Positions 6,727 through 27,587 are shown, numbered from the stretch's first letter. The stretch is DNA of 64,000 nt from Candidatus Omnitrophota bacterium (GCA_043814605.1 JBDRJV010000047.1:5077-69076); one strand, 5' to 3'. Notes: generated by a model from the letters alone, not told the origin. A program made the numbers and translations.

Positions 6727-6770
6727 GCACAGTAGCTACTCTCTACTTAAAAAAAGAAGGAGCAGAAGAA

Positions 6771-8012: not shown

Positions 8013-8606
8013 CAAATAAAAAAAGCTTTTATAAGGAAACCATGAACTTTAAAATACGTTCATGGTGACAGGAAGGCAAGAAGCCAGATCCGCCAAGCAT
8101 GTTCTTCGAAGTTTACAGTGGCGAGATTTAATCCGCCAAGTGCATTCAAAGAAGAGAACAGTGGCAAGGTTGGAAGTAAATAATAGGACACAGATTTTCG
8201 CAGATTAACAGGATTAATAAAAAAGGATTATGATAATCTAGTTATCTATTTGTAATAGATAACACTAATTCTGAAGAATTGATAAAAAACAAAAAATAAT
8301 TTTTGTTTTGTTAACGATCTCTCAGAATTATATTCCGCAAAATGCGGAACTAGATTAATATTATAGAACTAAGTTAATATCATTAAACCACAATAAACAT
8401 TGTTGTTTGATTGCGTAATAACAGTTTAAATCTGAGTAAAGCAGTGTTTATCTGTGGGCTATGAAGGTGTTGTATTTTTCCTGTGCAACCTGAGTCAGGC
8501 ATAGGAGATTTCCTGGGCTCCTTAGAGGAAAGATAAAATAATCATAATAAATAGTAATGCTTCATATTTAACTTGAAACATTAAATATGCAGGGTATAAT
8601 AAGATC

Positions 8607-9833
8607 ATGATAAAGCCGCGAATATTAGCTAATGTGCTTAAAAGAGCAATCAAAAGTTTCCCGGCGGTTGTTGTTACCGGGCCTCGGCAATCCGGAAAAA
8701 CAACTTTATTGAAAACATTGTATTCAAAAACACATCGTTATGTTTCTTTGGAAGATCCGGATGTGAGAATGCGGGCAAAAGAGGACCCGGTGAGTTTTTT
8801 AGCGCAAAATAATGCGCCGGTAATTATTGATGAAATACAATATATTCCGGAGCTGCTTTCATATATAAAAACAAAAATTGATCAAAAAAGAAAACCCGGA
8901 CAATGGTTGTTTACGGGGTCTCAGAATTTTGTTTTAATGCAGGGAGTGAGCCAGTCTCTGGCGGGAAGAGCTGCGGTTGTTTCTCTTTTACCATTTTCTT
9001 ATGCGGAGCGGATAAACCAGGCGGGCAAAGCGCAGGATATTAATAACTGGGTGAAGATGCTGAATGTTGAGCAAATTTGTTCAAAAAAAGAATCTTTGAG
9101 TGAACTTATTTTAAGGGGGAATTATCCGGAGATTGCCAGTAAAAAAACAGTTGACCGGCAATTGTGGTGCGGTTCGTATATCTCTACTTACTTAGAAAGA
9201 GATGTGAGAAATTTGTCGGCCATTGGGGATTTAAGCCAGTTTGAAAGATTCTTAAAACTATGCGCGACAAGAACCGGACAAATTTTAAATCTTTCCGAAA
9301 TGGCAAAAGAAATCGGGGTGAGTGTTCCTACGGCAAAAAGGTGGATTTCAATCCTCGAAACAGGATATCAAATATATTTGCTGTATCCATATTATAAAAA
9401 CATCGGTAAACGTTTAATAAAAAGCCCAAAGCTGTATTTTTGTGATACCGCTTTGGCAGCATATTTGTTGGGAATCAATGATCGTGAAGTGATCTTAAAT
9501 AGCCCAAATTTTGGAAATATTTTTGAAACTATGATTATAAATGATTTTGTTAAACGTTTTTTGCATTTTGGGCAGATGCCTTCAATGTATTACTTGCGCA
9601 GCCGGGATGGATTAGAAATAGATTTGGTGATAGAGGTTAATCAGCAATTGCATTTATTTGAAATAAAGAGCGCGATGAATATTACTCAAAAACATGCAAG
9701 CGCGTTGATAAGACTAAAAGCAGATAAAAAATTAGCAATTAAAACTGCGGCGATAATTTCCCGGTCCAAAGATAATTATTTGCTCAGTAAAGGAGTGGTA
9801 AATTATAATTGGAAGAATATTCTTTCTTTTTGA
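8607..9833 (+). CDS. AAA+ ATPase with C-terminal DUF4143 / PD-(D/E)xK-like domain (COG1373 family)
   Basis: Walker A GPRQSGKTT and Walker B VIIDEIQ. C-terminal D..EID..EIK motif. Paralog of the ORFs at 12498 and 25186. Confidence 0.8.
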   Translation: MIKPRILANVLKRAIKSFPAVVVTGPRQSGKTTLLKTLYSKTHRYVSLEDPDVRMRAKEDPVSFLAQNNAPVIIDEIQYIPELLSYIKTKIDQKRKPGQWLFTGSQNFVLMQGVSQSLAGRAAVVSLLPFSYAERINQAGKAQDINNWVKMLNVEQICSKKESLSELILRGNYPEIASKKTVDRQLWCGSYISTYLERDVRNLSAIGDLSQFERFLKLCATRTGQILNLSEMAKEIGVSVPTAKRWISILETGYQIYLLYPYYKNIGKRLIKSPKLYFCDTALAAYLLGINDREVILNSPNFGNIFETMIINDFVKRFLHFGQMPSMYYLRSRDGLEIDLVIEVNQQLHLFEIKSAMNITQKHASALIRLKADKKLAIKTAAIISRSKDNYLLSKGVVNYNWKNILSF

Positions 9834-9890
9834 GATCTTTCGCAATAATCACGAAATACCTGGATAAGTAGCGAGTAGCTAGTAGAGAGA

Positions 9891-10256
9891 GTGGAAAAGC
9901 AGAAGATAAAAAATGTAGAAGATTTTCTTGTTTATCAAAAATCAACAAAATTATTTGATGATTTTTTGGAAAAAGATTTACCGGTTTTAAAAGCAGATTT
10001 TGCTGGGAGTACATTAGCCAGAAACCAGTTAAGATGTTTAGATTCTATTTGCGCTAATATGGAAGAAGGCTATGAACGCAAGCATGGGAAAGAGATCAAG
10101 AATTTTTTTAGAATGTCCAAAGGCTCAGCTGGCGAAGCAAGAGGAAGATATAAACGGTTGAAGAGAGTATTACCGGAAAAAGTTATAGAAATTAGAGTAG
10201 CAGCTTTAAATGAGATTAGAGCCATGCTTGAATCTTTGACTAAGAAATGGGAATAG
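9891..10256 (+). CDS. four-helix-bundle protein (23S rRNA intervening-sequence protein family, TIGR02436-like)
   Basis: About 120 aa with the EG..R...G S.GEA.G pattern (NMEEGYERKHG...SKGSAGEARG) typical of this family. GTG start. Confidence 0.55.
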   Translation: MEKQKIKNVEDFLVYQKSTKLFDDFLEKDLPVLKADFAGSTLARNQLRCLDSICANMEEGYERKHGKEIKNFFRMSKGSAGEARGRYKRLKRVLPEKVIEIRVAALNEIRAMLESLTKKWE

Positions 10257-10352
10257 TTTTCTCTATTGCTTTTTAGTTTTAACAAAATATGAATTATGTA
10301 GTTTTGAAATAGATTGTAGAGATAAGTATGTTATAGAGAATTTTTGGTTTTT

Positions 10353-10420
10353 TCTCTCTACTAGTTGAAAACATTAATATATTTTCAGTGAAATCCCGCT
10401 AAGGCGGGGCTACTCGCTAC
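10353..10420 (+). repeat. REP-like dispersed palindromic element, copy 1
   Basis: ctctctact-agttgaaaacattaatatattttcag-tgaaatcccgctaaggcggggctactcgctac. Contains the CCCGC-TAAG-GCGGG hairpin. Confidence 0.8.
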
Positions 10421-10602
10421 TATTTACTTAAAAAAATAAGTTTAATTATTTTGTAATGAATAAAATATGAATGGTGAGTTTTGCAAGTGAACTGTATATA
10501 TAAGCGTATTTTAGAGGAATTGAGTATTTTTCTCTCTACTTGCTACTCGCTTGTGCCCGTAAGGGTACTACTCTCTACTTAAAAAAAGAAGGAGCTAAAA
10601 AC

Positions 10603-11820
10603 GTGCGCAACAACAGAAGAGTCGTAGTTACAGGAATTGGGATTGTTTCGGCATTAGGCATTGGCCGGGATAAGTTTTGGGATAATATTAAAAAAGGTAA
10701 GTCAGGGATATCTAAGATTACCTCAATAGATACATCTGCTTATAAATGCCATTATGGCGGAGAAGTAAAAGATTTTAATCCTGAAGATTTTATCCCGAAA
10801 AGAAGAATAAAGTTTTTAGGCAAAACATCACAGTTGGCAATTGCCGCGGCTTATTTAGCTTTACAAGATTCCGGTATTCCTTTAAAGCGAATCCCCAAAG
10901 AATCAATGGGTGTGATCATGGGAACAACTATTGGGGAGAAAGCTATAGAAGAGTTAGCTGCACAATGGGCCAAAGGCGGATTAAAAGAAATAGACAGAAA
11001 AAAACTTTTCCAGGCTGCTGCCAATAATATTCCGGCTAATGTAGCTATACAGTTTAAAGCCATGGGATTAAATTGTTTAATCCCCAATGCCTGTGCTGCG
11101 GGTAATTATGCAATTGGTTATGGATATGATTTAATAAGGAATAAAGATTTAAATTTTGCTTTAGTCGGTGGAAGTGAATCGTTTTCACCTTTAGCCTATG
11201 CCGGGTTTCAAAGGCTTTATGCTATGTCTCCGGATAAATGCAGTCCTTTTGATAAAAATAGAAAAGGCATGATGCTGGGAGAAGGTTCTGGAATATTATT
11301 TTTAGAATCTTTAGAATCAGCTTTAAAACGCAAAGTAAAGATTTACGCGGAAATTTTAGGTTACGGCTTATCCTGCGATGCTTATCATGCTACAGCGCCT
11401 GACCCCAAAGGCATTGCTCGAGTTATGCAAAAGGCGTTAGATCAAGCGAATATTAGTTATAAAGAGGTTGATTATGTTTGCGCGCACGGTACAGGTACTC
11501 CGGCTAATGATAAAGCCGAAAGCGCGGCAGTCAAGGAAGTTTTCAAAGAGAGGCATAAAGAAGTATTAGTTAGTTCAATAAAATCAATGCTCGGGCATAC
11601 AATGGGTGCGTCTTCAGCGATTGCAGGAGCAGCTTGTTGCTTAGGGATAAAAGAAGGAATTGTGCCGCCGACCATAAACTTTGAAACTCCGGATCCGGAA
11701 TGTGATATAGACTGCGTGCCGAATAAAGCGCGTAAAAAAGATCTGAATGTTGTTTTAAATAACGGCTTTGCTTTTGGCGGAAATAATTGCTGCGTGGCGT
11801 TTGGGAAATATAGCGGATAG
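10603..11820 (+). CDS. beta-ketoacyl-ACP synthase (FabF/KAS II-like), catalytic triad intact
   Basis: NACAAGNYAIG (Cys), CAHGTGT (His), SMLGHTMG (His). GTG start at 10603 with the same upstream leader (tactctctacttaaaaaaagaaggagc) as the 6771 gene. The ORF track extends to an upstream TTG at 10540, which I do not favour. Confidence 0.85.
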   Translation: MRNNRRVVVTGIGIVSALGIGRDKFWDNIKKGKSGISKITSIDTSAYKCHYGGEVKDFNPEDFIPKRRIKFLGKTSQLAIAAAYLALQDSGIPLKRIPKESMGVIMGTTIGEKAIEELAAQWAKGGLKEIDRKKLFQAAANNIPANVAIQFKAMGLNCLIPNACAAGNYAIGYGYDLIRNKDLNFALVGGSESFSPLAYAGFQRLYAMSPDKCSPFDKNRKGMMLGEGSGILFLESLESALKRKVKIYAEILGYGLSCDAYHATAPDPKGIARVMQKALDQANISYKEVDYVCAHGTGTPANDKAESAAVKEVFKERHKEVLVSSIKSMLGHTMGASSAIAGAACCLGIKEGIVPPTINFETPDPECDIDCVPNKARKKDLNVVLNNGFAFGGNNCCVAFGKYSG

Positions 11821-12121
11821 AAAAAAGTTACAAATTATAAATTATGAGTTACGAGTGAAAAGCTGAATTCTGAAAGCTGATGGCTGATAGCTAGTAATTT
11901 ATTTAACTGGTAAAGGGTACACAGGACAACCGGGTTAATGAAGGAAATATTTATACCTGCTAAAATTTATGTCAGGGGAACAATAACTCTGCTAAAATTT
12001 TAATAACTTGATAAAAAACAGTAAATGATTTATACAAAACAGGGTTGACAGTACTGATTTGTATAAGATTGAATATTTTAGAATTTATTTAAAAATATGG
12101 AGATAGAATCAGTATAGGCAG

Positions 12122-12230
12122 TTTTATACATCCGCGGCCTAAAACCGCGCCCATTTATGGCGCGGATAAAAGGAGGCCGCTTGAGTATTCCACCTCAGGA
12201 ACCACGGGCTTTAGCCCGTGGGGGTTCCAT
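12122..12230 (+). repeat. ~110-bp GC-rich structured element, copy A
   Basis: Nested stems GCGGCC/GGCCGC and CCGCGCC/GGCGCGG, plus hairpin GGAACCACGGGC-TTTA-GCCCGTGGGGGTTCC. Sharply GC-rich against the AT-rich background. Confidence 0.7.
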
Positions 12231-12497
12231 TAAAAAGCAATAACATTAATATCTGCAGTTAGTTGCATTATTAAAAAAGATAATTTTTCAAAAACAAAAA
12301 ATGACAAATTTAAAGTGATACTTTAAAATTATCAATAATTTATACAAATTAGTATTGACAGTACTGATTTGTATAAGTTTGGATGCGTAATAAGGATAAT
12401 AATATATTGTAAGGAAAAACATGACTTGACAGCAATATATTATGCCTGCTATAATTTATATAAAATTAATAATAACCCTGCTAAAATTTAGAAAAAA

Positions 12498-13745
12498 ATG
12501 TATATACATAGAGATCTCGAAAAAAAAATTATTAAATACTTAGATAGTCCGGAAATTTTGGCGATCATTGGCCCTCGGCAGAGCGGGAAGACTACGCTAA
12601 TTAAAAATGTTCTAAAAACTCTTAAAAACGCTGTATACATAGATTTTGAAGACAGAGAAGTTCTGGAATTATTTAATAGTGATATAAAGTCTTTTTATAA
12701 GTTATATGTTAAAGATTCTAAATATTTATTTGTTGACGAATTTCAATACGCGAAAGAAGGCGGCAAAAAGTTAAAGTATTTATATGATACTTTTAAACTA
12801 AAAATTATTATTTCCGGCTCTTCCAGCCTTGATCTTACAAAGCAGGCGATAAAATATTTAGTGGGGAGAGTTTTTGTTTTTTACCTTTATCCTTTTAGTT
12901 TCAAGGAATATCTGGATTTTCGCGATAAGTCATGTTATGAGAATATTTATTTAGATATCCATGAAACTGTCAAAGAATATTTTTTATACAAGAAAAAATC
13001 TATTCCGCTTATTTCTCCAGAAATGATAAAAAAAATTAATAAATATTATCATGAATATGCGATTTTTGGCGGATACCCCCGTGTAGTTCTGGCTAAAGGT
13101 ATTGAAGAAAAAATAACCGTTCTGAAAAATATTTACAACACTTACTTTTTAAGAGAAATAAGGGATATCCTACAGCTGAGTACAGAAGTGGAATTACAAA
13201 AGCTGATCAAATGCCTAGCGCTTCAGACAGGCAGTATAGTCTCATATAAAGAATTAAGCCAAACAACAAGTTTAAATTATAATAACCTGTTAAAACATTT
13301 AAATATCCTTGAGAATACTTTTGTGATAAAAAAACTTCTGCCGTTTTTTCGTAATAAAAGAACAGAAATCGCCAAAGCTCCGAAAATTTATTTTGTGGAT
13401 AATGGTTTGAGAAATATGTCGGTAGGTAATTTTCAGGACATGGGAGAACGAGTTGATAGAGGCAGTATTAATGAGAATTTTATTGCCGGAGAATTATTAA
13501 AGCAGGAATTTGCCATAAATTACTGGAGAACAAAATCTAACGCGGAAGTTGATTTTATCTTGGAAAAACAGGGCAAACACAGCGCGATTGAAGTAAAATC
13601 CAGATTGTCTTCGGATAAAATCGGTAGAGCATTAATCGCTTTTAAAGAAAAATATCCTGATTTTAGAATAACTATTGTTTCTGAAAATTATTATAGTTTT
13701 AATAAAAAAGAGCAGGTTTTTTTTCTGCCGTTATTTTTTGTTTAA
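12498..13745 (+). CDS. AAA+ ATPase with C-terminal DUF4143 / PD-(D/E)xK-like domain (COG1373 family)
   Basis: GPRQSGKTT, FVDEFQ, C-terminal EVDFIL...AIEVKS. Confidence 0.8.
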   Translation: MYIHRDLEKKIIKYLDSPEILAIIGPRQSGKTTLIKNVLKTLKNAVYIDFEDREVLELFNSDIKSFYKLYVKDSKYLFVDEFQYAKEGGKKLKYLYDTFKLKIIISGSSSLDLTKQAIKYLVGRVFVFYLYPFSFKEYLDFRDKSCYENIYLDIHETVKEYFLYKKKSIPLISPEMIKKINKYYHEYAIFGGYPRVVLAKGIEEKITVLKNIYNTYFLREIRDILQLSTEVELQKLIKCLALQTGSIVSYKELSQTTSLNYNNLLKHLNILENTFVIKKLLPFFRNKRTEIAKAPKIYFVDNGLRNMSVGNFQDMGERVDRGSINENFIAGELLKQEFAINYWRTKSNAEVDFILEKQGKHSAIEVKSRLSSDKIGRALIAFKEKYPDFRITIVSENYYSFNKKEQVFFLPLFFV

Positions 13746-13876
13746 AAAAGAAATAATTGCTGTGTCGCGTTTGGGAAATATAAATAATGTTGTGTAATGT
13801 TTAATGTGTTATGTGTAATGAATTTTTTATGCATCAAGCTCCAGGCTGCAAGCTTCAGGGGTTTTAGCTTGCGACT

Positions 13877-13934
13877 TGTTGAGAACATTAATATATTTTT
13901 AGCGAAATCCCGCTAAGGCGGGGCTACTCGCTAC
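13877..13934 (+). repeat. REP-like element, copy 2 (preceded by the gcatcaagctccaggctgcaagc module from 13831)
   Basis: Near-identical to copy 1. Confidence 0.8.
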
Positions 13935-13950
13935 TTTTAAAAGAGGCTTC

Positions 13951-15033: not shown

Positions 15034-15047
15034 CAAAAGGCGAGAAA

Positions 15048-17110: not shown

Positions 17111-19329
17111 TGAATTTATTTTCTTTAACTAGTATAGTTGTAATTCTTTCTACTTTGGGGCTTGGATTTTTTATTTTTATAACAAATAAAAATAATAAAG
17201 TTGCTAGTTCTTATGGAGCGTTAGCTATTGCAGCAGGTATCTGGGGAATAGGAGCTTTTTTATTTTCGACTACTTCTAACAAAGAAACAGCGTTATTTGG
17301 GTGGAGAATAGCACATATAGGTATAATATTTACACCGCCACTTTTTTTCCATTTTGTTTGTAGATTAGCTAATTTAAACAAAAAAAGGTTGCTTTTTATT
17401 AGTTATTTGTCGGGCTTGTTATTTTTGTTACTTTGTTTTTTAGATACTAAATTATTTTTAGGGGATATAGATTTTGTTTTTAATAGTTTTTATTTTTTAG
17501 CTTGGTATAAACAGAAAAATATAGGTTACTTATTATATTATATTCTGTTTTATCATATTTTATTAGGATATGCATTTTTACTATTGTTGCAGTTTTATAC
17601 AAAAATAATAGGTATTATGCGTATTCGAGTCAAATATATAATTTTAGCTTCTGTAATTGGTTGGTTAGGTCCACATGGTATGTATGTATTAATTTTAGGA
17701 ATTAAAAAATTATATCCAATTTCAAATCTTTGTATAGGTATATATCCATTTATTATTGCATACGCAATTGCAAAACATAGACTTATGGATGTCAAGGTTG
17801 CAATTACACGTAGTGCAATTTTACTTATAGTGTATATTTGTATAGTTGGATTCCCTCTATTAGTAATAGGAGTAGGTAAAGAATACTTGCAGAATAGTTT
17901 TGGAAATAAATGGTTTTACCCTCCTTTAGCATTATATACATTATTAGCTTTGTTTGCTCCGTATATTTATTTAACTTTACAAACAAGAGCTGAGCAAAAA
18001 AGAATCAGACAGCAAATACATCTGCATCAATCTTTAAAAGCAGCTTCTAAAACAACAATTGAGGTGCAAAGTATTGATAAACTAGCTAAAATTATTCCCA
18101 GATATTTAATCCGGCTTTACAGCCGGTTAGATAATAAAATTAGCCATATTACTTTGTTTCTTAAGGATAAGAAAAAAGAAGAATATCATTTGCGTTCATC
18201 TGTAGGAAACCAAAAATTGCAATCAGATATCTTGATTAATTCCGACAGCTACCTTGCGAAATGGTTTACCAAGGTCAGAGAAGTTTTAGTGGAAAATGGA
18301 GCCGTAAAAGCCAAAGAAGTGGAAGTTTTAGTGTATGAGGATATTGATTTTTGGATGAATAAAGCCAGTATTTTGAGTGTGCCTTACAAAGGATTAAATA
18401 AAGTACTGAACAATTTAAAAAAAGAAATGAAAGAATTAAAAGCCAGTGTGATTTTGCCCTCTGTCTACCAAAAAGAATTGTTAGGATTTTTGATTTTAGG
18501 CGAGAAAACTCCGGATCCGTATTCATTAAATGATATTGATACTTTTTCTATTCTGGCTAATGACAGTGCTATGGCGTTTAAGGCTGCGCAATTATTTGAG
18601 GATTTAAAGATTGCGCAGGCACGCTTGATCCAATCAGAAAAACTAAACCTTCTGGGCCAGCTGGCCTCATCCATGGCGCATGAAATTAATAATCCTCTGG
18701 CAATTATTTCCGGCAATGTGCAGTTATTGCTTATGGATGAATCGGATGAGAGCAAGATGAAATTATTAACTAAAATCAATGACCAGACTGAACGCGGTTA
18801 TAAAATTATCCACCGCTTGCTAAATTTTTCCAAGCTTCCTAAAGAAGACATTAAAGAAATTGATATTAATCGTCTGGTAGATGAAACACTGGAATTGATC
18901 AATCATAAGATCGTGCACGGTAATATTGAACTGCAAAAGGATTTTAAAGCAACAGATATAATCCGCGGTAATCCCACGCAAATCCAGGAAGTTATCTTAA
19001 ACCTGTGTGTTAATGCTATCCAAGCTATGCCCCAGGGCGGGAAACTGATGATCAATACCAGCCGCGCGGGCGATATGGTGCAGATAGAAGTTAAGGATAC
19101 AGGAAAAGGCATCCCGCCGGAAGAAGTAAAGGATATATTTGATCCGTTCTTTACCAAGGGCAAGGAAAACGGTACAGGGTTGGGATTGTTTGTGGCCAGC
19201 CAGATCATGAGCCTGCATAACGGATTAATAAAAGTTAAAAGTAAGGTTGGCGAAGGCACTAGTTTTGTGTTAAAATTTGCTTTAGGCGATGAAGGGCCGA
19301 AAGGCACGGAAAGTGGGGTCAGGTCTTGA
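17110..19329 (+). CDS. sensor histidine kinase, multi-TM sensor + GAF-like middle + HisKA + HATPase_c
   Basis: Multi-TM N-terminus. HEINNPLAIISGN H-box. GTGLGLFVA G2 box. Long near-identical blocks shared with the 21453 kinase. Confidence 0.85.
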   Translation: MNLFSLTSIVVILSTLGLGFFIFITNKNNKVASSYGALAIAAGIWGIGAFLFSTTSNKETALFGWRIAHIGIIFTPPLFFHFVCRLANLNKKRLLFISYLSGLLFLLLCFLDTKLFLGDIDFVFNSFYFLAWYKQKNIGYLLYYILFYHILLGYAFLLLLQFYTKIIGIMRIRVKYIILASVIGWLGPHGMYVLILGIKKLYPISNLCIGIYPFIIAYAIAKHRLMDVKVAITRSAILLIVYICIVGFPLLVIGVGKEYLQNSFGNKWFYPPLALYTLLALFAPYIYLTLQTRAEQKRIRQQIHLHQSLKAASKTTIEVQSIDKLAKIIPRYLIRLYSRLDNKISHITLFLKDKKKEEYHLRSSVGNQKLQSDILINSDSYLAKWFTKVREVLVENGAVKAKEVEVLVYEDIDFWMNKASILSVPYKGLNKVLNNLKKEMKELKASVILPSVYQKELLGFLILGEKTPDPYSLNDIDTFSILANDSAMAFKAAQLFEDLKIAQARLIQSEKLNLLGQLASSMAHEINNPLAIISGNVQLLLMDESDESKMKLLTKINDQTERGYKIIHRLLNFSKLPKEDIKEIDINRLVDETLELINHKIVHGNIELQKDFKATDIIRGNPTQIQEVILNLCVNAIQAMPQGGKLMINTSRAGDMVQIEVKDTGKGIPPEEVKDIFDPFFTKGKENGTGLGLFVASQIMSLHNGLIKVKSKVGEGTSFVLKFALGDEGPKGTESGVRS

Positions 19330-19367
19330 AACTTGACAAAAAGTGATTTGAATAATAATATTGTAAT

Positions 19368-20213
19368 ATGGCAAGACCATTAAGAATAGAATATGACGGA
19401 GCAGTATATCACGTAACATCGCGAGGTAATGCGAAAGAACCTATCTTTAAGAATGCTGAAGATAGGTTTAATTTTTTTGAAGTACTAGCAGAAGCAAAGA
19501 AAAAGCATAATATTATATGTCATGCGTATTGTTTAATGGATAATCATTATCATTTAGTTGTGGAAACTCCTGAGGGAAATTTGAGTAGGGCAATGAGGCA
19601 TATAAATGGAGTTTATACGCAAAGTTTTAACCGCAAGCATAAAAGAGTAGGTCATGTGTTTCAAGGTAGATATAAAGCGATGTTGGTAGATAGGGATGAA
19701 TATCTATTGGAAGTAATTAGATATGTGGTTTTAAATCCCGTACGAGCTGGATTAGTTAAAAGTGCGGAAAAATGGCAATGGAGTAGTTATTGTGGAACTG
19801 TGGGGATGAGCAAAAAAGAGAGATTTCTGGATACAGATTGGGTGTTGGAATATTTTGGAGGCACAAAAAATATTGCTCAAAAAAAATACCGAGAATATGT
19901 AGATGAGGGAATTGAAAAAGAAATAGTAAAGAAAAAGATTAGTCAGCAGAGTATTCTTGGCAGTGAAAGTTTTAAGCAAAAAATCTCTAAGTATGTGCAA
20001 GGGAAAAAAGAAATAAAAGAAATTTCAAGGTGCCAACGTTATGTGGGACGTCCTCAATTAGAAGATATTTTTAAGGGAGCGCAAAAAGTCAAAGCAGAAA
20101 GAAATGCTTTAATTAGAAAAGCAATAACAGATTACGGGTATCAGCAAAAAGAGATAGCGCAGTGGTTGGGGATGCATTATACCAGCGTAAGTAAAATACT
20201 AAGCAGGGAATAA
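19368..20213 (+). CDS. IS200-like Y1 (HUH) transposase, REP-associated (RAYT)-like, with C-terminal DnaA_C-like HTH
   Basis: HUH motif HYHLVVET. Catalytic-Tyr region GRYKAM. The C-terminal ~80 aa resemble the DnaA C-terminal DNA-binding domain. Paralog at 43640. Confidence 0.7.
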   Translation: MARPLRIEYDGAVYHVTSRGNAKEPIFKNAEDRFNFFEVLAEAKKKHNIICHAYCLMDNHYHLVVETPEGNLSRAMRHINGVYTQSFNRKHKRVGHVFQGRYKAMLVDRDEYLLEVIRYVVLNPVRAGLVKSAEKWQWSSYCGTVGMSKKERFLDTDWVLEYFGGTKNIAQKKYREYVDEGIEKEIVKKKISQQSILGSESFKQKISKYVQGKKEIKEISRCQRYVGRPQLEDIFKGAQKVKAERNALIRKAITDYGYQQKEIAQWLGMHYTSVSKILSRE

Positions 20214-20274
20214 AAAGCTAAAATTCACCGCAAATGCGGGACAGGCAAGACCTGAATCCATGCCTTAGGAAATG

Positions 20275-20376
20275 GAACTCCCACGGGCTAAACATGGTTC
20301 CTGGGGTGGAATACTCAAGCGGCATCCTTTTATCCGCGCCATAAATGGGCGCGGTTTTAGGCCGCGGATGTATAAA
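20275..20376 (-). repeat. ~110-bp GC-rich structured element, copy B (inverted; 60 nt downstream of the transposase stop)
   Basis: Reverse complement matches copy A at ~93% identity. Confidence 0.7.
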
Positions 20377-20421
20377 ATGCTAAAATTCAAGACCTGACCC
20401 CATTACGCTTTATTCGCAGAA

Positions 20422-21438
20422 TTGTTGAATGAGTTCTTTGAAAATAGTGAATTAAAATTAACTTTTGAAGTTTTATTATGCAATATTGGAATAAGCGCTA
20501 AAAAAGTGGCAGCATTATCAGCGTTGATTTTTTACAGAGATTATATTTTAGATGGTGGTTACTATCCTATGGGGGGAATGGATGAGTTTGCTAAAATTTT
20601 ATCAAACAGATTTGTTGAGTTAGGAGGAGAATTAATTTTAAATAATAGAGTTAATAAAATTTGTTTGTATAAAAATACAATTAAAGGGGTAGTATTAAGC
20701 GATGGAAAGTTTATTGATAGTAAATTAGTTGTTTCTAATTCTGATGCTACTCAAACATTTAAAGATTTGTTAGCAGATATAGATACAAAAGAAAAAAAAC
20801 TGGTTGAGCAATTTAAAATTTCCCCACCATTATTTGCTTTGTATTTAGGATTAGATTGTAAGTATAGTGATTTTACAAATGAAACATGTAATATGTGGTG
20901 GGTTAAAACGAATGATTTGGATAGCTACTATTCTGATTTAAAAAATAATATTTTAAGCGACAGTAATAATTTTTTTATGACCAGTTTTCCTGCGGCACAT
21001 ACAAATAATGTTGATGCTAACATAAAAAACACTATGCAATTTTTTATGTATGCTCCATATGAAAATGAGGATTTTTGGGGTAAACATAGGATAAGAGTTG
21101 AAGATAAATTAATAAATGAAGCGTCTGCAATTTTTAAAGGGTTTAAAAAAAATATAAAAGTTAAAGTTAGTGCGACACCTTTAACGTTTAATCGGTATAC
21201 CTTAAATAGATCAGGTTCTCCTTACGGGTGGGCGTCAACATTGGACCAATTAAGCAATTCAGTTTTTCCTCAAAAAACGTCAATAAATAATTTATATTTA
21301 GTTGGGCATTGGTGTACCATAGGTAGCGGGCAAGGCGGGGTTCCAAAAGTATTGTTTTCGGGGAGAAAAGCTGCATATTTAATAACTAAGCAAGCAAAAA
21401 TGAAATGGAAATTTAAGAAAAATATTTTAACTTATTAA
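20422..21438 (+). pseudogene. 5'-truncated paralog of the CrtI-like FAD oxidoreductase (lacks the FAD-binding N-terminus)
   Basis: Aligns to residues ~155-488 of the 15644 ORF (ILDGGYYP, GHW.T.GSGQGGV) at ~40% identity. The reading frame begins right after the transposase-plus-GC-element. Confidence 0.6.
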
Positions 21439-21452
21439 GATTGGAATAAATA

Positions 21453-23684
21453 ATGAACCTTTTTTCTTTTTCGTCATTAATAGTTTTTGTATCAAATTTG
21501 ATTTTGACTATTTTTTTATTGATTCAAGGAAGGAAGCAAAAAGTTAGTTATATTTTGAGTATTTTTAGCTTGCTTGCTACTGTTTGGGGATTAGGCGCGT
21601 ATAAATTTTCTTCTACCAACTTGATTGAAGAAGCTTTATTTTGGAGAAAGATAGCTAATGTGGCAGTTATTTTTAGCCCTGTTTGTTACTATTATTTTAT
21701 ATGTGAATATTTAGAGTTAAAGAACAAAAAGCATAAAATGCTTCTTTTTGTATCTTTTCTTTTTAGCATATTTTTTGTTTTTTCGAATTTCTTTTTACCG
21801 CCTAAGTTTTTTGTTGGTGGTTTAAGAATCGTTTTTAGCCAGTTCTACTATCCAGATTGGTTTCAATATAAGAGTTTTTTGTATTTATTTTTTTATGGAA
21901 CATTTTATTTGTTATTATTAGGATATGCTTTTCTTTTATTGCTGACGGCATATGTAAAAGCTACCCCTAAGCTAAGAAATACATTGAAGTATTTTATTTT
22001 GGGTTCAGTATTTGGATGGTTAGGCCCGACGTTTATGTGGCTGATAGAATTTAGAATAGACATATATCCTTATGCAAATTTCTTAATAGCAATATACCCA
22101 GCAATTTGGGCCTATGCTATTATAAAACATCGTTTAATGGATATTAAAGTTGCAATTACGCGCGGAGCAATTCTTTTAATAGTTTACGGATTTATCGTAG
22201 GATTGCCATTATTAACAATTTTAATAGCAAAAGATTATTTGCAAAATAATTTTGCAGATAAATGGTTTTATCCGCCATTGGCTTTGTATACTCTGTTAGC
22301 TTTATTTGCGCCGTATATTTATCTAACATTGCAAACAAAAGCTGAGCAAAAAAGAATACGTCAGCAAATCCATTTGCATCAATCTTTAAAAGCCGCGTCT
22401 AAAACTACCATTGAAGTGCAAAGCATTGATAAGCTGGCTAAAATCATTCCTAGGTACCTAATTAGGCTTTACAGCCGATTGGACAATAAGATCAGCCACA
22501 TTACATTATTCCTTAAAGATAAGAAAAAAGAAGAGTATAATTTGCGTTCATCTGTAGGAAACCAAAAATTGCAATCAGATATTTTGATTAATTCCGATAG
22601 CTACCTTGTGAAATGGTTTACCAAGGTCAGAGAAGTTTTAGTAGAAAACGGAGTATTAAGAGCCAAGGAAGTGGAAGTATTGGTTTATGAGGATATTGAT
22701 TTTTGGATGAATAAGGCTAGTATTTTAAGTGTGCCTTATAAAGGCTTGAATAAAGTATTATTAAATCTAAAAAAAGAAATGAGGGGATTAAAAGCCAGTG
22801 TGATTTTACCCTCTGTCTACCAAAAAGAATTGTTAGGGTTTTTGATTTTAGGCGAGAAAACTCCGGATCCGTATTCTTTAAATGATATTGATACTTTGTT
22901 AATCCTATCAAATGATATGACAATAGCTTTAAAATCACAGGAAATTATTGAAGATTTGACAAAAACACAAGCACATTTAGTGCAGTCAGAGAAACTAAAG
23001 GTTGTGGGAGAAATAGCTTCTTGTTTAGCTCATGAAGTAAAAAATCCGCTAACAACTCTAAAAACTTTCTCTGAATATTTACCACAAAAGATGCAAGAAA
23101 AAGATGAAGAATTTATTGAAAAGTATCGCAGATTGGTTCCTCCTGAGATTGAAAGGATAAATTCAATAGTTCAGAAATTATTAGATTTTTCTAAGCCAAA
23201 TCTTCCTAATTTTCAAAAAACAGATTTAAAAGCGTTGATAAAAGAGGTGGTAGAGTTTTTGAGTGAGAAGTTTTTAAAAAATAAAATAAAAGTAATAGAA
23301 AATTATTCGAAAGATTCCCTAATGCTAAAAATTGATCAGCACCAGATAAGACAAGTATTGTTGAACCTGATATTAAACGCGATAGATGCTATGCCCGAAG
23401 GAGGCAATATTAGTATAAGCTCAGAAATGTTAGATAACGCTATAAAAATAGAAATTAGTGATACAGGCAAAGGGATTCCTGAGGATGAGTTGAAAAATAT
23501 CTTTGATCCGTTCTTTACCAAGGGTAAGGAAAACGGTACAGGGCTAGGCTTGTTTGTGGCCAACCAGATCATGAGCCTGCATAATGGTTTAATAAAAGTT
23601 AAAAGTAAGTATGGCGAAGGCACCAGTTTTGTGCTAAAATTTGCTTTAGGCGATGAAGGGCCCAAGGGAACGGAGAAGAGTTAA
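21453..23684 (+). CDS. sensor histidine kinase, multi-TM sensor + GAF-like middle + HisKA + HATPase_c
   Basis: HEVKNPLTTLKTF H-box. The middle domain and the last ~90 aa are near-identical to the 17110 kinase. The DHp domain matches the 30290 kinase instead. Confidence 0.85.
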   Translation: MNLFSFSSLIVFVSNLILTIFLLIQGRKQKVSYILSIFSLLATVWGLGAYKFSSTNLIEEALFWRKIANVAVIFSPVCYYYFICEYLELKNKKHKMLLFVSFLFSIFFVFSNFFLPPKFFVGGLRIVFSQFYYPDWFQYKSFLYLFFYGTFYLLLLGYAFLLLLTAYVKATPKLRNTLKYFILGSVFGWLGPTFMWLIEFRIDIYPYANFLIAIYPAIWAYAIIKHRLMDIKVAITRGAILLIVYGFIVGLPLLTILIAKDYLQNNFADKWFYPPLALYTLLALFAPYIYLTLQTKAEQKRIRQQIHLHQSLKAASKTTIEVQSIDKLAKIIPRYLIRLYSRLDNKISHITLFLKDKKKEEYNLRSSVGNQKLQSDILINSDSYLVKWFTKVREVLVENGVLRAKEVEVLVYEDIDFWMNKASILSVPYKGLNKVLLNLKKEMRGLKASVILPSVYQKELLGFLILGEKTPDPYSLNDIDTLLILSNDMTIALKSQEIIEDLTKTQAHLVQSEKLKVVGEIASCLAHEVKNPLTTLKTFSEYLPQKMQEKDEEFIEKYRRLVPPEIERINSIVQKLLDFSKPNLPNFQKTDLKALIKEVVEFLSEKFLKNKIKVIENYSKDSLMLKIDQHQIRQVLLNLILNAIDAMPEGGNISISSEMLDNAIKIEISDTGKGIPEDELKNIFDPFFTKGKENGTGLGLFVANQIMSLHNGLIKVKSKYGEGTSFVLKFALGDEGPKGTEKS

Positions 23685-23884
23685 AATTTAATATTGTGTA
23701 GTGTTTAATGTGTTATGTGTCATGAATTTTTATGCAGCAAGCTCCAGGCTGCAAGCTTCAGGGGTTTTAGCTTGCGACTTGAAGCTTGAGGCTTGTGGCT
23801 TATATTTTTTCATTAAACAATAAACTTTACACATTACACAAAAATTTACGGATATTATATTGATTTATACACGGAGGTTAAAAG

Positions 23885-24922
23885 ATGCTGGAGATTTTGG
23901 TTGTTGATGATGAGCAAGAAATTGCTAAGGCACTAAAGAGATTTTTTGATCAAAAAGGATATTCTGTCCATATTGCCCATGACGGGAAAACTGCTGTTGA
24001 GCTGGTTAGGCAGCACCGGCCTCACCTTGTGTTCTTAGATATTCGTATGCCGCTGATGGATGGGTTAAGTGTGTTACGGAATATCCGTAATTATGACACG
24101 ACAATAAAAGTAATCATGGTTACAGCTTTTGGTACAAAAGAAATTGTTAATGAAGCTATGCGCCTGGGCGCAGTGGATTTTATCCGCAAACCTTTTACCC
24201 GTACATATCTGGAGCAGGAAGTTATGGCTAAGGTTAGCATCCAGCTTTTTGAAGATCTTCGCCAGGAAGTAGATGAGAAAAATAAATTAATTGATCAGCT
24301 TGAGAATTTAAACCAGAGAGCAGCAAGAAATTTTTATCAGACCGTGCTTTCTCTGGCTGCCGCATTAGAATCACGGGATTATTATACCCATGGCCATTCT
24401 GAACGCGTGGAAATGTACAGTAAACTTATTGCCAAAGAATTAAAAACAACGCTGGGTTTAGATATTAATAAGAAATTTATGGATGATTTGCATATTGAAT
24501 CAAGATTGCATGATATTGGTAAGATCGCGGTTTCAGATACAGTCCTGAATAAACCCGGAAGATTGACTCATGCTGAATACAATGAAATAAAAAGGCATCC
24601 GGGTGAAAGCGCGAGAATTCTGGCGCCATTAGATAATATTAAAGAAAATATAGAAGTTATTTATTCTCATCATGAACGCATTGACGGAAAAGGTTATCCG
24701 GATAATAAGACTGATAAAAAAATCCCATTAAGAGCCAAGATTATTGCTGTAGCTGATGCTTTTGATGCGATGACGTCAGACCGTCCGTACCGAAAAGCAA
24801 TGTCTGGAAAATATGCATTTACCGAACTTGAAAAAAACAAAGAAATTCAGTTTGATGCAGAAGTTGTTCATGCTTTTGTCTCTGCATATAATAAAAAAGA
24901 AACAATAGCTTTAAAAATTTAA
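23885..24922 (+). CDS. response regulator with HD-GYP phosphodiesterase output domain
   Basis: REC domain (VVDDE, FLDIRMPLMDG) plus HD..H..HHER.DGKGYP motifs. Confidence 0.85.
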   Translation: MLEILVVDDEQEIAKALKRFFDQKGYSVHIAHDGKTAVELVRQHRPHLVFLDIRMPLMDGLSVLRNIRNYDTTIKVIMVTAFGTKEIVNEAMRLGAVDFIRKPFTRTYLEQEVMAKVSIQLFEDLRQEVDEKNKLIDQLENLNQRAARNFYQTVLSLAAALESRDYYTHGHSERVEMYSKLIAKELKTTLGLDINKKFMDDLHIESRLHDIGKIAVSDTVLNKPGRLTHAEYNEIKRHPGESARILAPLDNIKENIEVIYSHHERIDGKGYPDNKTDKKIPLRAKIIAVADAFDAMTSDRPYRKAMSGKYAFTELEKNKEIQFDAEVVHAFVSAYNKKETIALKI

Positions 24923-25185
24923 AAACTACTTTGAAACTACTTCGTATAAGGAAGCTAAATCCGCCAAGTGTTTTCAAAGAAGAGAACAGTGGCGAGATAA
25001 AAAGCGAGTAATAGGACGCAGTGTTTATCAGGATTTATCAGTGTTCTCTGATTTACCCTGAGCTTTTTTCGAAGGGGATTCCTTAGAGGGAAAAGTAAAT
25101 ATATGTTGACAAAATAACATAAATATGTTATTTTTACAGTTAAAATAACATGTACACGTAGAACCTAAAAGTATAGGCATGATAA

Positions 25186-26334
25186 ATGCATTTTAAACGC
25201 AGCTTAAACCTTAAAAAATTCAATACAAGCTTATTTCTTTTTGGCCCTCGTTTAACAGGAAAAACTACATTATTAAAATTACTTTCCTTTGATGAATATT
25301 TTGATTTGCTAGATCCGGAATTAGAACTGGAGTATCGAACAAATCCTAAGCAATTTTGGCAGCAAATATCCGCGATGAAAAAAGGATCCCGCATCATTGT
25401 CGATGAGATTCAAAAAGTGCCGATACTTTTAAATTATGTGCAAAAAGCAATAGATCAGCTAGGGCATAAATTTATTCTCTCAGGATCAAGCGCCAGAAAA
25501 TTAAAACGCGGCGGAGCAAATCTTTTAGGTGGGCGGGCGTTAGATTTAAGACTGCATCCTTTAACATCCGAAGAATTAGGAGATAATTTTTCCTGTGATT
25601 TTAGTATGCAGTATGGAACATTACCGCGAATTTCTGATTTAATCAGTGAAAATAATTTAGACTTAGCTAAGCAGCATTTAAAAAGTTATATTTCAACCTA
25701 TCTTAAAGAAGAAATTCAAGCGGAAGCATTGACTCGGAATGTGGGCGCTTTTAACCGGTTTTTGAATATTGCCGCACAAAGTAATGGCCAGTTTATTGAA
25801 TTTTCTAATATTTCCCGGGAATGCTCTGTGCCGGCAAGCACGGTGAAGGAATATTATCAAATTCTTGAAGATACTTTAATCGGATTTTTTTTGTGGCCAG
25901 ATGATCGCAGTGAGAGAAAAAAAGCAAGGCCTAAATTTTATTTTTTTGATTGCGGTGTCTTAAGATCAATACAAAACAGGCTTAATGATCCTCCTACAGC
26001 TATTGAATTAGGGTGTCTTTTTGAAACATGGTTTGTTAATGAAATATTGCGCTTAAGAGATTATCTGGGCAAAGAACATCAGTTTTCTTTTTGGCGGGAG
26101 AGAGACCAGGAAATTGATATTTTAATTTCAGGGGGCCGGGGGGTAATTTTAGCGATTGAATGTAAATCCGGGAAAGTTAATAAGTGCCCAAATGCTGTAA
26201 ATAGTTTTAAAAAAAAGTTTCCTAAAGTTCCGATTATAATTGCTTCGTTACAAGAACCCAAAGCTAAACTTGTGGGGAATGTGAAAGTTTTACCTTATAA
26301 ACAAGCGATAGATTATTACAAAAATTTAAAATAA
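25186..26334 (+). CDS. AAA+ ATPase with C-terminal DUF4143 / PD-(D/E)xK-like domain (COG1373 family)
   Basis: GPRLTGKTT, IVDEIQ, C-terminal EIDILI...AIECKS. Confidence 0.8.
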   Translation: MHFKRSLNLKKFNTSLFLFGPRLTGKTTLLKLLSFDEYFDLLDPELELEYRTNPKQFWQQISAMKKGSRIIVDEIQKVPILLNYVQKAIDQLGHKFILSGSSARKLKRGGANLLGGRALDLRLHPLTSEELGDNFSCDFSMQYGTLPRISDLISENNLDLAKQHLKSYISTYLKEEIQAEALTRNVGAFNRFLNIAAQSNGQFIEFSNISRECSVPASTVKEYYQILEDTLIGFFLWPDDRSERKKARPKFYFFDCGVLRSIQNRLNDPPTAIELGCLFETWFVNEILRLRDYLGKEHQFSFWRERDQEIDILISGGRGVILAIECKSGKVNKCPNAVNSFKKKFPKVPIIIASLQEPKAKLVGNVKVLPYKQAIDYYKNLK

Positions 26335-27515: not shown

Positions 27516-27587
27516 GCTACTTTCTACTCTTTGAGAACATTAATATATTTTCAGCGAAATCCCGCTAAGGCGGGGCTCCTCGCTACT
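27516..27587 (+). repeat. REP-like element, copy 3 (immediately upstream of mtnP)
   Basis: ctactctttgagaacattaatatattttcagcgaaatcccgctaaggcggggctcctcgctac. Confidence 0.8.

What the first reader, a model, noticed from the sequence alone, without database searches (positions are those of the whole stretch)
8040..26334. Three paralogous COG1373 AAA+ ATPase / PD-(D/E)xK cassettes inserted between paralogous gene pairs, with shared flanking repeats
ATPases at 8607, 12498 and 25186 share Walker A/B motifs and a C-terminal D..E.D..E.K nuclease-like motif. Each sits in a long intergenic gap that separates members of a duplicated pair: KS-like/KS (8607), KS/downstream genes (12498), and the two REC-HD-GYP regulators (25186). 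Cassettes 8607 and 25186 share an upstream repeat (aatccgccaagtg..ttcaaagaagagaacagtggc.ag ... aataggac.cag, at 8125-8200 and 24955-25020) and a ccttagagg(g)aaa box (8515-8535, 25075-25095). This points to self-propagating or recombination-prone cassettes rather than ordinary housekeeping genes. The ATPase+nuclease architecture also fits a defence or selfish-element function that is not characterised.
Basis: partly seen in the sequence, partly recalled or inferred. Interest (0 to 1): 0.7.

Follow-up and report, generated by a model that had tools for sequence, protein, structure and literature searches.

The report
Three inserted ATPase-nuclease defence-candidate genes
Three distantly related copies of a very common but functionally untested ATPase-nuclease gene (COG1373/DUF4143, catalogued as defence candidate PDC-S01) were each inserted separately into a conserved operon of an Omnitrophota bacterium, and two of the insertions left a duplicated end of the neighbouring host gene.

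Summary
ORFs 8607-9833, 12498-13745 and 25186-26334 each encode AAA_14 + DUF4143 proteins with invariant Walker A/B and E..D..ExK motifs. A confident structure model shows an AAA+/STAND-like ATPase, a helical/winged-helix module and a PD-(D/E)xK nuclease.

The three proteins are only 25-30% identical, so they are not copies of one another. Each belongs to a different subfamily. A1 and A3 have relatives at 60-77% identity in other phyla. All three have their own sigma-70 promoters; those of A1 and A3 overlap a palindrome.

The closest Omnitrophota relative has all three sites empty. Two other relatives carry unrelated family members at site 2.

The "shared flanking repeats" exist, but they are local hairpin repeats that do not travel with the genes.

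Two related loci show the same with 43-47-nt repeats.

The family is already listed as a PD-(D/E)xK member (2012) and as PADLOC candidate PDC-S01. This is therefore a new member of a known, uncharacterised kind. The junction signature is a modestly novel lead.

The parts
7982..8018 (+). Direct repeat 1, left copy: the functional 3' end of the KS-like gene (...AIITKYRDY*, stop at 8012)
   Evidence: Local alignment with 9841-9877; translations
8080..8203 (+). Hairpin repeat: two tandem 43-nt units (8080, 8123) plus a tail.
   Evidence: Not found beside A1-like genes of other genomes
8519..8531 (+). TCCTTAGAGGAAA box, copy 1
8563..8600 (+). A1 promoter with overlapping palindrome. -35 TTGAAA at 8573-8578, -10 TATAAT at 8595-8600, inverted repeat CATATTTAA (8563-8571) / TTAAATATG (8581-8589)
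   Evidence: Promoter scan gives 11/12 matches. The same element is conserved upstream of A1-like genes in four other genomes from different phyla
8607..9833 (+). A1: 408-aa AAA_14 + wHTH + DUF4143 (PD-(D/E)xK) protein, PDC-S01
9841..9877 (+). Direct repeat 1, right copy: displaced remnant of the KS-like 3' end (AIITKYLDK*), starting 7 nt after the A1 stop
   Evidence: p about 0.01 on nucleotides; in-frame peptide and stop codon aligned
9866..10551 (+). Separate neighbouring insertion: four-helix-bundle (23S rRNA IVP / TIGR02436) gene 9891-10256 in the loop of the 21-nt inverted repeat 9870-9890 / 10531-10551
11780..11812 (+). Direct repeat 2, left copy: the functional 3' end of KS (..NNCCVAFGKY, then SG*)
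12122..12231 (-). REP-like GC-rich hairpin element inserted in the A2 upstream region; an inverted copy of 20271-20377, which lies next to the RAYT gene
   Evidence: (I1, I25)
12426..12455 (+). A2 promoter: TTGACA-18-TATAAT with TG extension
   Evidence: 12/12, the best match in the scanned region
12498..13745 (+). A2: 415-aa AAA_14 + DUF4143 protein, PDC-S01
13750..13788 (+). Direct repeat 2, right copy: displaced remnant of the KS 3' end (NNCCVAFGKYK*), starting 4 nt after the A2 stop. 31/33 identical to 11780-11812; both differences are synonymous
   Evidence: score 56 against a null maximum of 28
24951..25031 (+). Hairpin repeat, copy 2 (a single unit plus tail)
25080..25092 (+). TCCTTAGAGGGAA box, copy 2
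25106..25151 (+). A3 promoter with overlapping palindrome. TTGACA at 25106-25111, palindrome AAATAACATAAATATGTTATTT at 25112-25133 overlapping the -10, and a further half-site AAATAACAT near 25143
   Evidence: Conserved upstream of A3-like genes in L031, L033 and L047
25186..26334 (+). A3: 382-aa AAA_14 + DUF4143 protein, PDC-S01. No flanking direct repeat detected

Best explanation
The window comes from a Candidatus Omnitrophota genome. It holds three independently acquired single-gene cassettes of the COG1373 / AAA_14-DUF4143 family, which PADLOC lists as candidate PDC-S01.

Shown:
- Each cassette is an autonomous unit with its own sigma-70-type promoter and one ORF. In A1 and A3 the promoter overlaps a subfamily-specific palindrome.
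- The ORF encodes an N-terminal AAA+/STAND-like P-loop NTPase, a helical/winged-helix module and a C-terminal PD-(D/E)xK nuclease with intact catalytic residues.
- The cassettes sit in intergenic sites of a conserved lipid/polyketide-type plus 7TM-kinase/HD-GYP operon. Those sites are empty in the nearest relative.
- One of the sites (after KS) is occupied in other relatives by non-orthologous family members.
- Cassettes 1 and 2 are bracketed by direct repeats made of the last 10-12 codons of the upstream host gene. The displaced copy begins 4-7 nt after the ATPase stop codon.

Inferred:
- The protein represses its own promoter through the wHTH module.
- On a trigger such as foreign DNA or a phage component, NTP-dependent assembly switches on the nuclease. 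This would work like McrBC or a nuclease-type Avs/STAND protein, so the genes act as defence or abortive-infection modules.
- The cassettes arrive by horizontal transfer carrying a short copy of a host gene's 3' end. They integrate by recombination within that stretch (att-like or Campbell-type), which replaces the gene end and leaves the native end behind as a remnant.
For: Family and fold:
- Pfam and PADLOC hits.
- Invariant motifs.
- AF2 model with pLDDT 88.6 and pTM 0.87, with an alpha-beta-beta-beta-alpha-beta C-terminal core carrying E307, D339 and E352-x-K354.
- C-terminal domain neighbours are McrC, R.BspD6I, Can2, Bax1, Hjc and the R2 restriction-like endonuclease.

Insertion:
- Empty sites in L007-9.
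- Site 1 is empty in every related locus that spans it.
- Site 2 is occupied in L010/11 and L012 by ATPases only 25-27% identical to A2 and to each other, while the flanking KS genes are 71-72% identical.

Horizontal spread:
- A1 and A3 each have more than 100 homologues at 60-77% identity in other phyla, including Margulisiibacteriota, Nitrospirota, Deltaproteobacteria, Firestonebacteria and Elusimicrobia. KS-like reaches only 74% within Omnitrophota.
- The homologues are solitary genes in unrelated contexts, including inside trp and ara operons.
- The non-coding promoter with its palindrome is conserved across phyla.
- The family is on 372 plasmids and only 8 metagenomic 'phage' records.

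Junctions:
- Direct repeats in the window, in L012 and in L028.
- Codon differences between the repeat copies are mostly synonymous (about 11 synonymous against 5 non-synonymous). In L028, 14 aa plus the stop are identical despite 4 nt changes.
Against: - No biochemical or phage-challenge evidence exists for this family. In the one heterologous test I found, PDC-S01 was among eight candidates tried against T4, T5 and T7 and was not among the four reported as protective (bioRxiv 10.1101/2024.09.26.614923).
- The neighbours are biosynthetic and signalling genes, not a defence island.
- Direct repeats are missing at site 3 and at about ten other family loci examined, including five plasmid copies. 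The integration route is therefore not general, or its traces decay.
- No recombinase lies in or beside the cassettes.
- GC content does not mark the genes as foreign.
- The nearest relatives share only 71-74% protein identity, so the timing and direction of gain against loss are inferred by parsimony.
Confidence: 0.6

Rival explanations
1. Selfish homing-type element. The ATPase-nuclease itself drives the spread of its gene. It cuts cassette-free alleles near the 3' end of a host gene, and repair then copies in the cassette together with a replacement gene end. This would be the way endonuclease-encoding mobile ORFs (mORFs) of fungal mitochondria behave. Any defence effect would be secondary or absent.
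For: - The order host-gene core, functional C-terminus, nuclease ORF, displaced native C-terminus at sites 1 and 2 and in L012 and L028 matches the architecture described for mitochondrial mORFs. There a carboxy-terminal duplication accompanies an endonuclease shown to mediate mobility (PMC3630166).
- Differences between the repeat copies are mostly synonymous, which fits two once-functional alleles.
- Each unit is a single gene with its own promoter.
- Insertions lie inside conserved operons (trp, ara, KS).
- There is no protection reported in the one phage test found.
Against: - Members of one subfamily (70-77% identical) sit next to unrelated genes, which is hard to reconcile with a sequence-specific homing target.
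- The repeats are absent at most loci.
- Cassettes without an ATPase (NAD_binding_4 + MNT/HepT in L012, PDDEXK_3 in L010) are bounded by the same kind of repeats, so the mechanism need not be encoded by the ATPase.
- The orientation of the ATPase relative to the host gene differs between the window and L028.
Confidence: 0.2
2. Passive passengers of a recombination-prone locus. In this repeat-rich genome the region undergoes frequent segmental duplication, deletion and gene conversion. The gene-end remnants would be leftovers of partial tandem duplications of KS-like and KS. Accessory genes of many kinds simply accumulate in the resulting gaps, with no cassette-specific integration mechanism.
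For: - The region contains segmental duplications (amine oxidase-HK at 15644-19329 and 20422-23684; three 7TM kinases), a RAYT gene with REP-like elements, an IVS-like four-helix-bundle insertion and several intergenic repeat families.
- A 28-nt leader is identical between KS-like and KS, which suggests gene conversion.
- Other small genes (MNT/HepT, PDDEXK_3, four-helix-bundle) occupy the same spacers in relatives.
Against: - The remnants are uniformly short (32-47 nt) and begin 4-7 nt after the ATPase stop in three independent cases, including an unrelated locus next to a helicase gene (L028).
- The window's remnant matches its own KS (31/33) far better than it matches the KS of L012. The duplication therefore arose separately in two lineages, at almost the same codon.
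- The cross-phylum conservation of the genes and promoters shows that they are transferred as units.
Confidence: 0.12
3. Resident operon components. The ATPases would be regulators or repair factors that work with the KS / HD-GYP pathway and were lost in the relatives.
For: They are on the same strand as the operon, and a family member recurs after KS in three genomes.
Against: - The three proteins at site 2 are 25-27% identical while their neighbours are 71-72% identical.
- The closest relative lacks all of them, with 39-159-nt spacers.
- They have their own promoters.
- Near-identical subfamily members lie in unrelated contexts in other phyla.
Confidence: 0.03

Closest known systems
PADLOC phage-defence candidate PDC-S01 (= COG1373, Pfam AAA_14 + DUF4143)
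   Same: All three proteins match PDC-S01 models end to end (E 1e-109, 4e-92, 4e-47). They are single-gene units with an ATPase fused to a PD-(D/E)xK domain, as the literature describes the candidate (PMC12988326). DUF4143 is listed in the PD-(D/E)xK superfamily (PMC3424549).
   Different: Nothing differs in the architecture. Added here: precise empty-site comparison, promoters conserved within a subfamily (with overlapping palindromes in A1 and A3), and flanking duplications of host-gene ends. I found none of these in the papers that mention the family.
McrBC (AAA+ GTPase McrB plus PD-(D/E)xK nuclease McrC), a type IV restriction system
   Same: McrC is the best structural match of the C-terminal domain (6hz4_N, E 2.4e-4, TM 0.56). 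Both combine an AAA+ motor with a PD-(D/E)xK nuclease.
   Different: Here there is one polypeptide instead of two. The ATPase is closer to the Arch_ATPase/STAND/ORC type than to McrB. There is no modification-reading domain. Activity is untested.
STAND NTPase defence proteins with nuclease effectors (Avs4) and the archaeal Walker-type ATPases PAB2304 / SSO1545
   Different: There is no C-terminal repeat or sensor domain, and the protein is only about 400 aa. The nuclease is C-terminal. The oligomeric state and the trigger are unknown.
Endonuclease-encoding mobile ORFs (mORFs) of fungal mitochondria, which carry a replacement C-terminus for the host gene
   Same: Same arrangement: gene core, inserted C-terminus, nuclease ORF, displaced native C-terminus (PMC3630166). 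It is seen here at sites 1 and 2 and in L012 and L028.
   Different: The nuclease families differ. In the window the ORF is not fused in frame to the host gene and has its own promoter. The duplicated stretch is only 10-15 codons. Nuclease-dependent mobility has not been shown. Many family loci lack the duplication.
Integrative islands that insert into the 3' end of a gene and restore it (att direct repeats)
   Same: Direct repeats of 32-47 nt made of the target gene's 3' end. L012 has tandem accretion, with three copies of the KS end separating two cassettes.
   Different: No integrase lies in or next to the 1.3-2.2-kb cassettes, and the target genes differ from case to case.

Membership tests
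COG1373 / Pfam AAA_14 + DUF4143 | N-terminal AAA_14 P-loop domain and C-terminal DUF4143 domain, both above the Pfam gathering scores | tested here: met
   AAA_14 scores 101, 110 and 70 bits (cut-off 27). DUF4143 scores 164, 119 and 90 bits (cut-off 28.1)
AAA+/P-loop NTPase | Walker A GxxxxGK[ST] and Walker B hhhhDE, conserved | tested here: met
   G25-P-R-x-x-G-K31-T-T and D75-E76 are invariant in 13- and 24-sequence alignments
PD-(D/E)xK nuclease superfamily | Alpha-beta-beta-beta-alpha-beta core with an acidic residue on strand 2 and (D/E)xK on strand 3 | tested here: met
   The model has helix 302-320 (E307), strand 337-344 (D339), strand 347-353 (E352, K354), helix 361-371 and strand 378-385. 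The domain-only model (pLDDT 88.4) matches McrC, R.BspD6I, Can2, Bax1 and Hjc
PD-(D/E)xK nuclease superfamily | Metal-dependent phosphodiester cleavage | not testable with these tools
   Needs biochemistry
PADLOC PDC-S01 | Match to the PDC-S01 profile HMMs as a single-gene system | tested here: met
Anti-phage defence system (validated) | Protection of a host against phage | not testable with these tools
   One published heterologous test included PDC-S01 and did not list it among the four protective candidates. Other papers call validation pending
Defence island resident | Neighbourhood enriched in known defence genes | tested here: not met
   The neighbours are KS, reductase, amine oxidase, 7TM histidine kinases and HD-GYP regulators. 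The four-helix-bundle protein has no PADLOC hit
Integron gene cassette | Promoterless ORF followed by an attC site, in an array next to intI/attI | tested here: not met
   Each gene has its own promoter. The flanking repeats are derived from the target gene and are not a common attC. The cassettes are dispersed
IS element / transposon | Terminal inverted repeats, a short target duplication and a transposase | tested here: not met
   No inverted repeats bracket the ATPase genes. The duplications are 32-47 nt. No DDE, HUH or serine transposase lies in the cassettes. The RAYT at 19368 is a separate gene
Integrative element with att repeats | Direct repeats from the target gene's 3' end flanking the insert | tested here: met
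   Met at sites 1 and 2, in L012 and in L028. Not met at site 3
Integrative element with att repeats | An element-encoded integrase | tested here: not met
   The cassettes hold only the ATPase ORF, plus MNT/HepT in L012
Homing mobile ORF (mitochondrial mORF type) | Nuclease ORF inserted at a gene's 3' end, with a replacement C-terminus and a displaced native C-terminus | tested here: inconclusive
   The architecture is present in 2 of 3 window cassettes and in 2 related loci. Which copy is native could not be determined because the relatives are too distant. Nuclease-driven mobility is untestable here

The most novel reading that the evidence does not exclude
DUF4143/PDC-S01 genes, counted as one of the commonest 'defence systems' of prokaryotes, may in fact be (or also be) autonomous single-gene selfish elements. 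They would spread in a homing-like way, entering next to the 3' end of conserved genes and bringing a replacement gene end with them. That would be a bacterial counterpart of mitochondrial endonuclease mORFs, driven by an AAA+-coupled PD-(D/E)xK nuclease.
Probability: 0.15. Interest if true: 0.75.

Novelty: new member of a known kind. Interest (0 to 1): 0.42.

Why it matters
- Scale of the gap. PDC-S01 is reported as the fourth most frequent 'defence' entry across prokaryotes, with about 39,000 hits in one survey (PMC12988326). No activity, trigger or mode of spread is known for it.
- What this locus offers. It gives unusually clean natural before-and-after comparisons. There are three insertions of three subfamilies in one conserved operon, with empty sites in a relative, exact cassette borders, and promoters that are conserved across phyla in two of the subfamilies.
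- A testable lead. The duplicated host-gene ends point to how such single genes enter genomes. If the lead holds family-wide, it would change how counts of these 'defence systems' are read.
- If it does not hold, the finding is an ordinary example of a known, abundant accessory gene family.

Tried and rejected
- Exact-sequence look-up of the window's own proteins returned nothing, so the source contig could not be fetched. The protein search did identify it as an NCBI Candidatus Omnitrophota MAG contig of 76,723 bp.
- Rfam found no known RNA family in the window. The hairpin repeats are not a catalogued RNA.
- I asked whether the hairpin repeat is a coding remnant. The copies at 8130 and 24958 could both read ..NPPS[AV]FKEENSG.., but the tandem unit at 8080 is in another frame and the peptide occurs nowhere else. 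I rejected this in favour of a structured repeat.
- No repeat flanking cassette 3 was found. The best alignment was not better than shuffles (p about 0.05) and lay in AT-rich sequence or inside the paralogous HD-GYP genes.
- GC and GC3 content do not separate the ATPases from their neighbours.
- The Nitrospirota-type relatives (L001-6, L014-22) have ACP, FabZ and a third KS where the window has the cassettes. They are too rearranged to serve as empty sites.
- Five plasmid copies and several metagenomic copies were checked for flanking repeats, with negative results.
- The L031 and L040 flanks do show repeats. These are multi-copy or low-complexity sequences, so I did not count them.
- The preprint cited as the source of the PDC candidates does not mention PDC-S01 in its main text.

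Full report
**What is in the sequence.**
The window is AT-rich (35% GC). Protein identity places it on a 76.7-kb NCBI contig of a Candidatus Omnitrophota MAG.

Between 340 and 27472, all on the + strand, lies a cluster with these genes: polyketide-cyclase/SDH-like, formyltransferase, aminotransferase, 7TM histidine kinase, REC, KS-like, KS, NAD_binding_4 reductase, nitroreductase, amine oxidase, 7TM kinase, a RAYT-type Y1 transposase, a truncated amine oxidase, a third 7TM kinase, and two REC-HD-GYP regulators.

Three further ORFs interrupt this cluster: A1 (8607-9833), A2 (12498-13745) and A3 (25186-26334).

All three ORFs carry Pfam AAA_14 and DUF4143 well above threshold. They share an invariant Walker A, Walker B and E..ExD..ExK residues.

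The repeat unit is a hairpin.

No further copy or fragment lies in the other 46 kb of the window.

**What the proteins are.**
- An AlphaFold model of A1 is confident (pLDDT 88.6, pTM 0.87).
- Residues 300-408 form an alpha-beta-beta-beta-alpha-beta unit that carries the invariant E307, D339, E352 and K354.
- Modelled alone (pLDDT 88.4), this domain matches McrC, a restriction-enzyme subunit, Can2, Bax1, Hjc resolvases and the R2 restriction-like endonuclease. That settles the PD-(D/E)xK fold.
- No relative has a solved structure by sequence search.

**What is already known about the family.**
- DUF4143/COG1373 is entry 100 in the 2012 PD-(D/E)xK census, with function unknown (PMC3424549).
- All three proteins match PADLOC's PDC-S01 models.
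- Recent surveys call PDC-S01 the fourth most common defence entry in prokaryotes and an ATPase fused to a PD-(D/E)xK domain, with validation pending (PMC12988326).
- In one heterologous test against T4, T5 and T7 it was tried and was not among the four protective candidates.
- Only three library papers mention DUF4143 at all.

**Are they insertions? Yes.**
- The closest relative with long contigs is L007-9 (KS-like 74% identical). Its order is KR, ACP, KS-like, 85 nt, KS, 159 nt, amine oxidase, methyltransferase, 7TM kinase, HD-GYP, 39 nt, HD-GYP. All three sites are empty.
- In L010/11 and L012 (71%), site 1 is empty with spacers of 87-91 nt. Site 2 holds an AAA_14+DUF4143 gene followed by MNT/HepT pairs.
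- Those two ATPases and A2 are only 25-27% identical to one another, while the adjacent KS proteins are 71-72% identical. The same spacer has therefore been filled independently, or refilled, by different subfamily members.
- More distant Nitrospirota-type loci have no ATPase, but they are rearranged.

**Are the genes horizontally mobile? The evidence says so.**
- A1 has over a hundred homologues at 69-77% identity annotated from Margulisiibacteriota, Nitrospirota, Deltaproteobacteria and Thermodesulfobacteriota.
- A3 has the same at 60-73% from Firestonebacteria, Desulfobacteraceae, Elusimicrobia and Riflebacteria.
- KS-like, an ordinary gene of the cluster, reaches only 74% within the phylum.
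- The homologues are solitary genes in unrelated settings: between a metallophosphatase and a tRNA synthetase, next to a DEAD helicase, between trpF and trpC, and between araD and araA on a plasmid.
- The family is on 372 of 72,556 plasmids but in only 8 metagenomic 'phage' records.

**Each gene is an autonomous transcription unit.**
- Upstream of A1-like genes in five genomes, a roughly 45-nt element is conserved. It has a -35 TTGACA and a -10 TAnAAT, bracketed by an inverted repeat (CCCTTAAnATTTAA ... TTAAATnTTAAGGG). The window's copy keeps the palindrome with paired changes.
- A3-like genes share a different element: TTGnnA, the palindrome AAATAACAT-n-ATGTTATTT over the -10, and a third half-site.
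- A2 has a perfect TTGACA-18-TATAAT, the best promoter match in the scanned region.
- Autorepression through the protein's winged-helix module is my inference from this layout.

**The 'shared flanking repeats'.**
- The hairpin repeat and the box are real, but they are not found beside A1-like or A3-like genes of other genomes. They belong to this genome, not to the cassettes.
- The downstream element that follows A1/four-helix-bundle, A2 and HD-GYP2 is a dispersed family. It has seven copies in the window, in both orientations.
- A 110-nt REP-like element next to the RAYT gene recurs inverted inside the A2 upstream region.
- The four-helix-bundle gene after A1 is a separate insertion. It lies in the loop of a 21-nt inverted repeat that looks like the native KS-like/KS spacer. 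It is separated from A1 by the KS-like remnant described next.

- Site 1. Seven nucleotides after the A1 stop lies a second copy of the last codons of KS-like. It reads AIITKYLDK* against the functional AIITKYRDY*, with the stop codons aligned (9841-9877 against 7982-8018).
- Site 2. Four nucleotides after the A2 stop lies a copy of the KS end. It reads NNCCVAFGKYK* against NNCCVAFGKYSG*, with 31 of 33 nt identical and both changes synonymous. The alignment score is 56 against a null maximum of 28.
- L012. The KS end occurs three times. The copies separate [ATPase-MNT-HepT] from [NAD_binding_4-MNT-HepT] and from the amine oxidase gene.
- L028. At this unrelated locus an A1-like cassette of 1,293 nt is bracketed by 47-nt repeats. 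The right copy is the 3' end of a convergent helicase gene and starts 4 nt after the ATPase stop. The left copy encodes the same 14 residues and stop despite four nucleotide changes.
- L010. A small PDDEXK_3 gene is flanked in the same way.
- Independence of the events. The window's KS remnant matches its own KS far better than it matches the KS of L012, yet the breakpoints fall within a codon of each other. The duplications therefore arose separately at almost the same spot.
- Substitution pattern. Across the four pairs, roughly 11 codon differences are synonymous and 5 are not. This fits two once-functional alleles better than one copy decaying freely.
- Limits. Site 3 shows no repeat, and about ten other loci show none, including five plasmid copies.

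**How I read the junctions.**
The simplest reading is that incoming DNA carried its own short copy of the host gene's end and recombined within it. That restored the gene and stranded the native end. This is the logic of integrative islands at gene 3' ends.

It is also, strikingly, the logic of endonuclease-encoding mobile ORFs in fungal mitochondria. There the arrangement is gene core, inserted C-terminus, endonuclease ORF and native C-terminus (PMC3630166).

No recombinase lies in the cassettes. Whether the ATPase-nuclease takes part in integration cannot be decided here.

**Verdict.**
- The finding is a correct observation of three independently inserted members of a known, abundant, experimentally uncharacterised family.
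- The 'self-propagating cassette with shared ends' reading is not supported.
- The 'accessory, defence-or-selfish ATPase-nuclease' reading is supported, and it matches the existing PDC-S01 label.
- The gene-end duplications, the reuse of the post-KS site and the promoter regions conserved across phyla (in A1 and A3) are modestly new and testable.

Noticed in passing
window 19368-20213 (+), with 20271-20377 and 12122-12231: A REP-associated tyrosine transposase (RAYT; NCBIfam NF047646, 96 bits against a cut-off of 80) sits between the duplicated amine oxidase-kinase segments. A 110-nt GC-rich hairpin element just 3' of it recurs in inverted orientation inside the A2 upstream region (94-98% identity).
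   Followed up: partly
window 9866-10551: The four-helix-bundle (23S rRNA IVP / TIGR02436) gene at 9891-10256 lies in the loop of a 21-nt inverted repeat (9870-9890 / 10531-10551), like an rRNA intervening-sequence element placed in an mRNA spacer. A four-helix-bundle gene also neighbours the A1-like ATPase in L040-46 and follows the HD-GYP pair in L008.
   Followed up: partly
window 13785-13935; partial copies at 10364-10421, 23689-23781, 27531-27588, 28495-28597(-), 36413-36482(-), 48111-48173: A dispersed intergenic repeat family of up to about 150 nt. It ends in the hairpin GAAATCCCGCTAAGGCGGGGCTACTCGCTACT and is often placed just before a ribosome-binding site, but it occurs in both orientations. 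It has no Rfam match.
   Followed up: partly
window 6736-6848 and 10568-10680: KS-like and KS share a 28-nt identical leader plus a GTG CGC start, and are 73% identical over the first 113 nt, although the proteins are 34% identical overall. This suggests local gene conversion or a copied translation-start region after the operon was split by A1.
   Followed up: no
window 15644-19329 and 20422-23684: A segmental duplication of amine oxidase + 7TM histidine kinase. The second amine oxidase copy is truncated, and up to 87% nt identity remains at the kinase 3' ends. The RAYT gene lies at the joint.
   Followed up: no
window 10540 and 26396: The mechanical ORF starts are over-extended. By comparison with relatives and from the ribosome-binding sites, KS most likely starts at GTG 10603 and HD-GYP2 at ATG 26420. 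A GC-rich palindrome (GGGCAATTCATGAATTGCCC) lies between A3 and HD-GYP2.
   Followed up: partly
L012 3953-3985, 6192-6224, 8006-8038; L010 17534-17624 and 18067-18209: In related Omnitrophota genomes, other small cassettes (MNT/HepT toxin-antitoxin pairs, an NAD_binding_4 gene, a PDDEXK_3 gene) are also separated by repeated copies of a host gene's 3' end. The junction signature is therefore not limited to the ATPase genes.
   Followed up: partly
L036 (Emticicia plasmid NC_018749, 52229-53395) and L047 1049-2200: Family members are inserted on the opposite strand inside otherwise intact sugar and amino-acid operons: araD | ATPase | araA, and trpF | ATPase | trpC.
   Followed up: no
window 11951-12074 and 12325-12489: The A2 upstream region contains two duplicated blocks. 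One is a CCTGCTAAAATTT direct-repeat block. The other is a TTATACAAA..TTGACA..TTTGTATAA palindromic block. They occur in swapped order on either side of the REP-like insertion. These may be duplicated regulatory sites.
   Followed up: no
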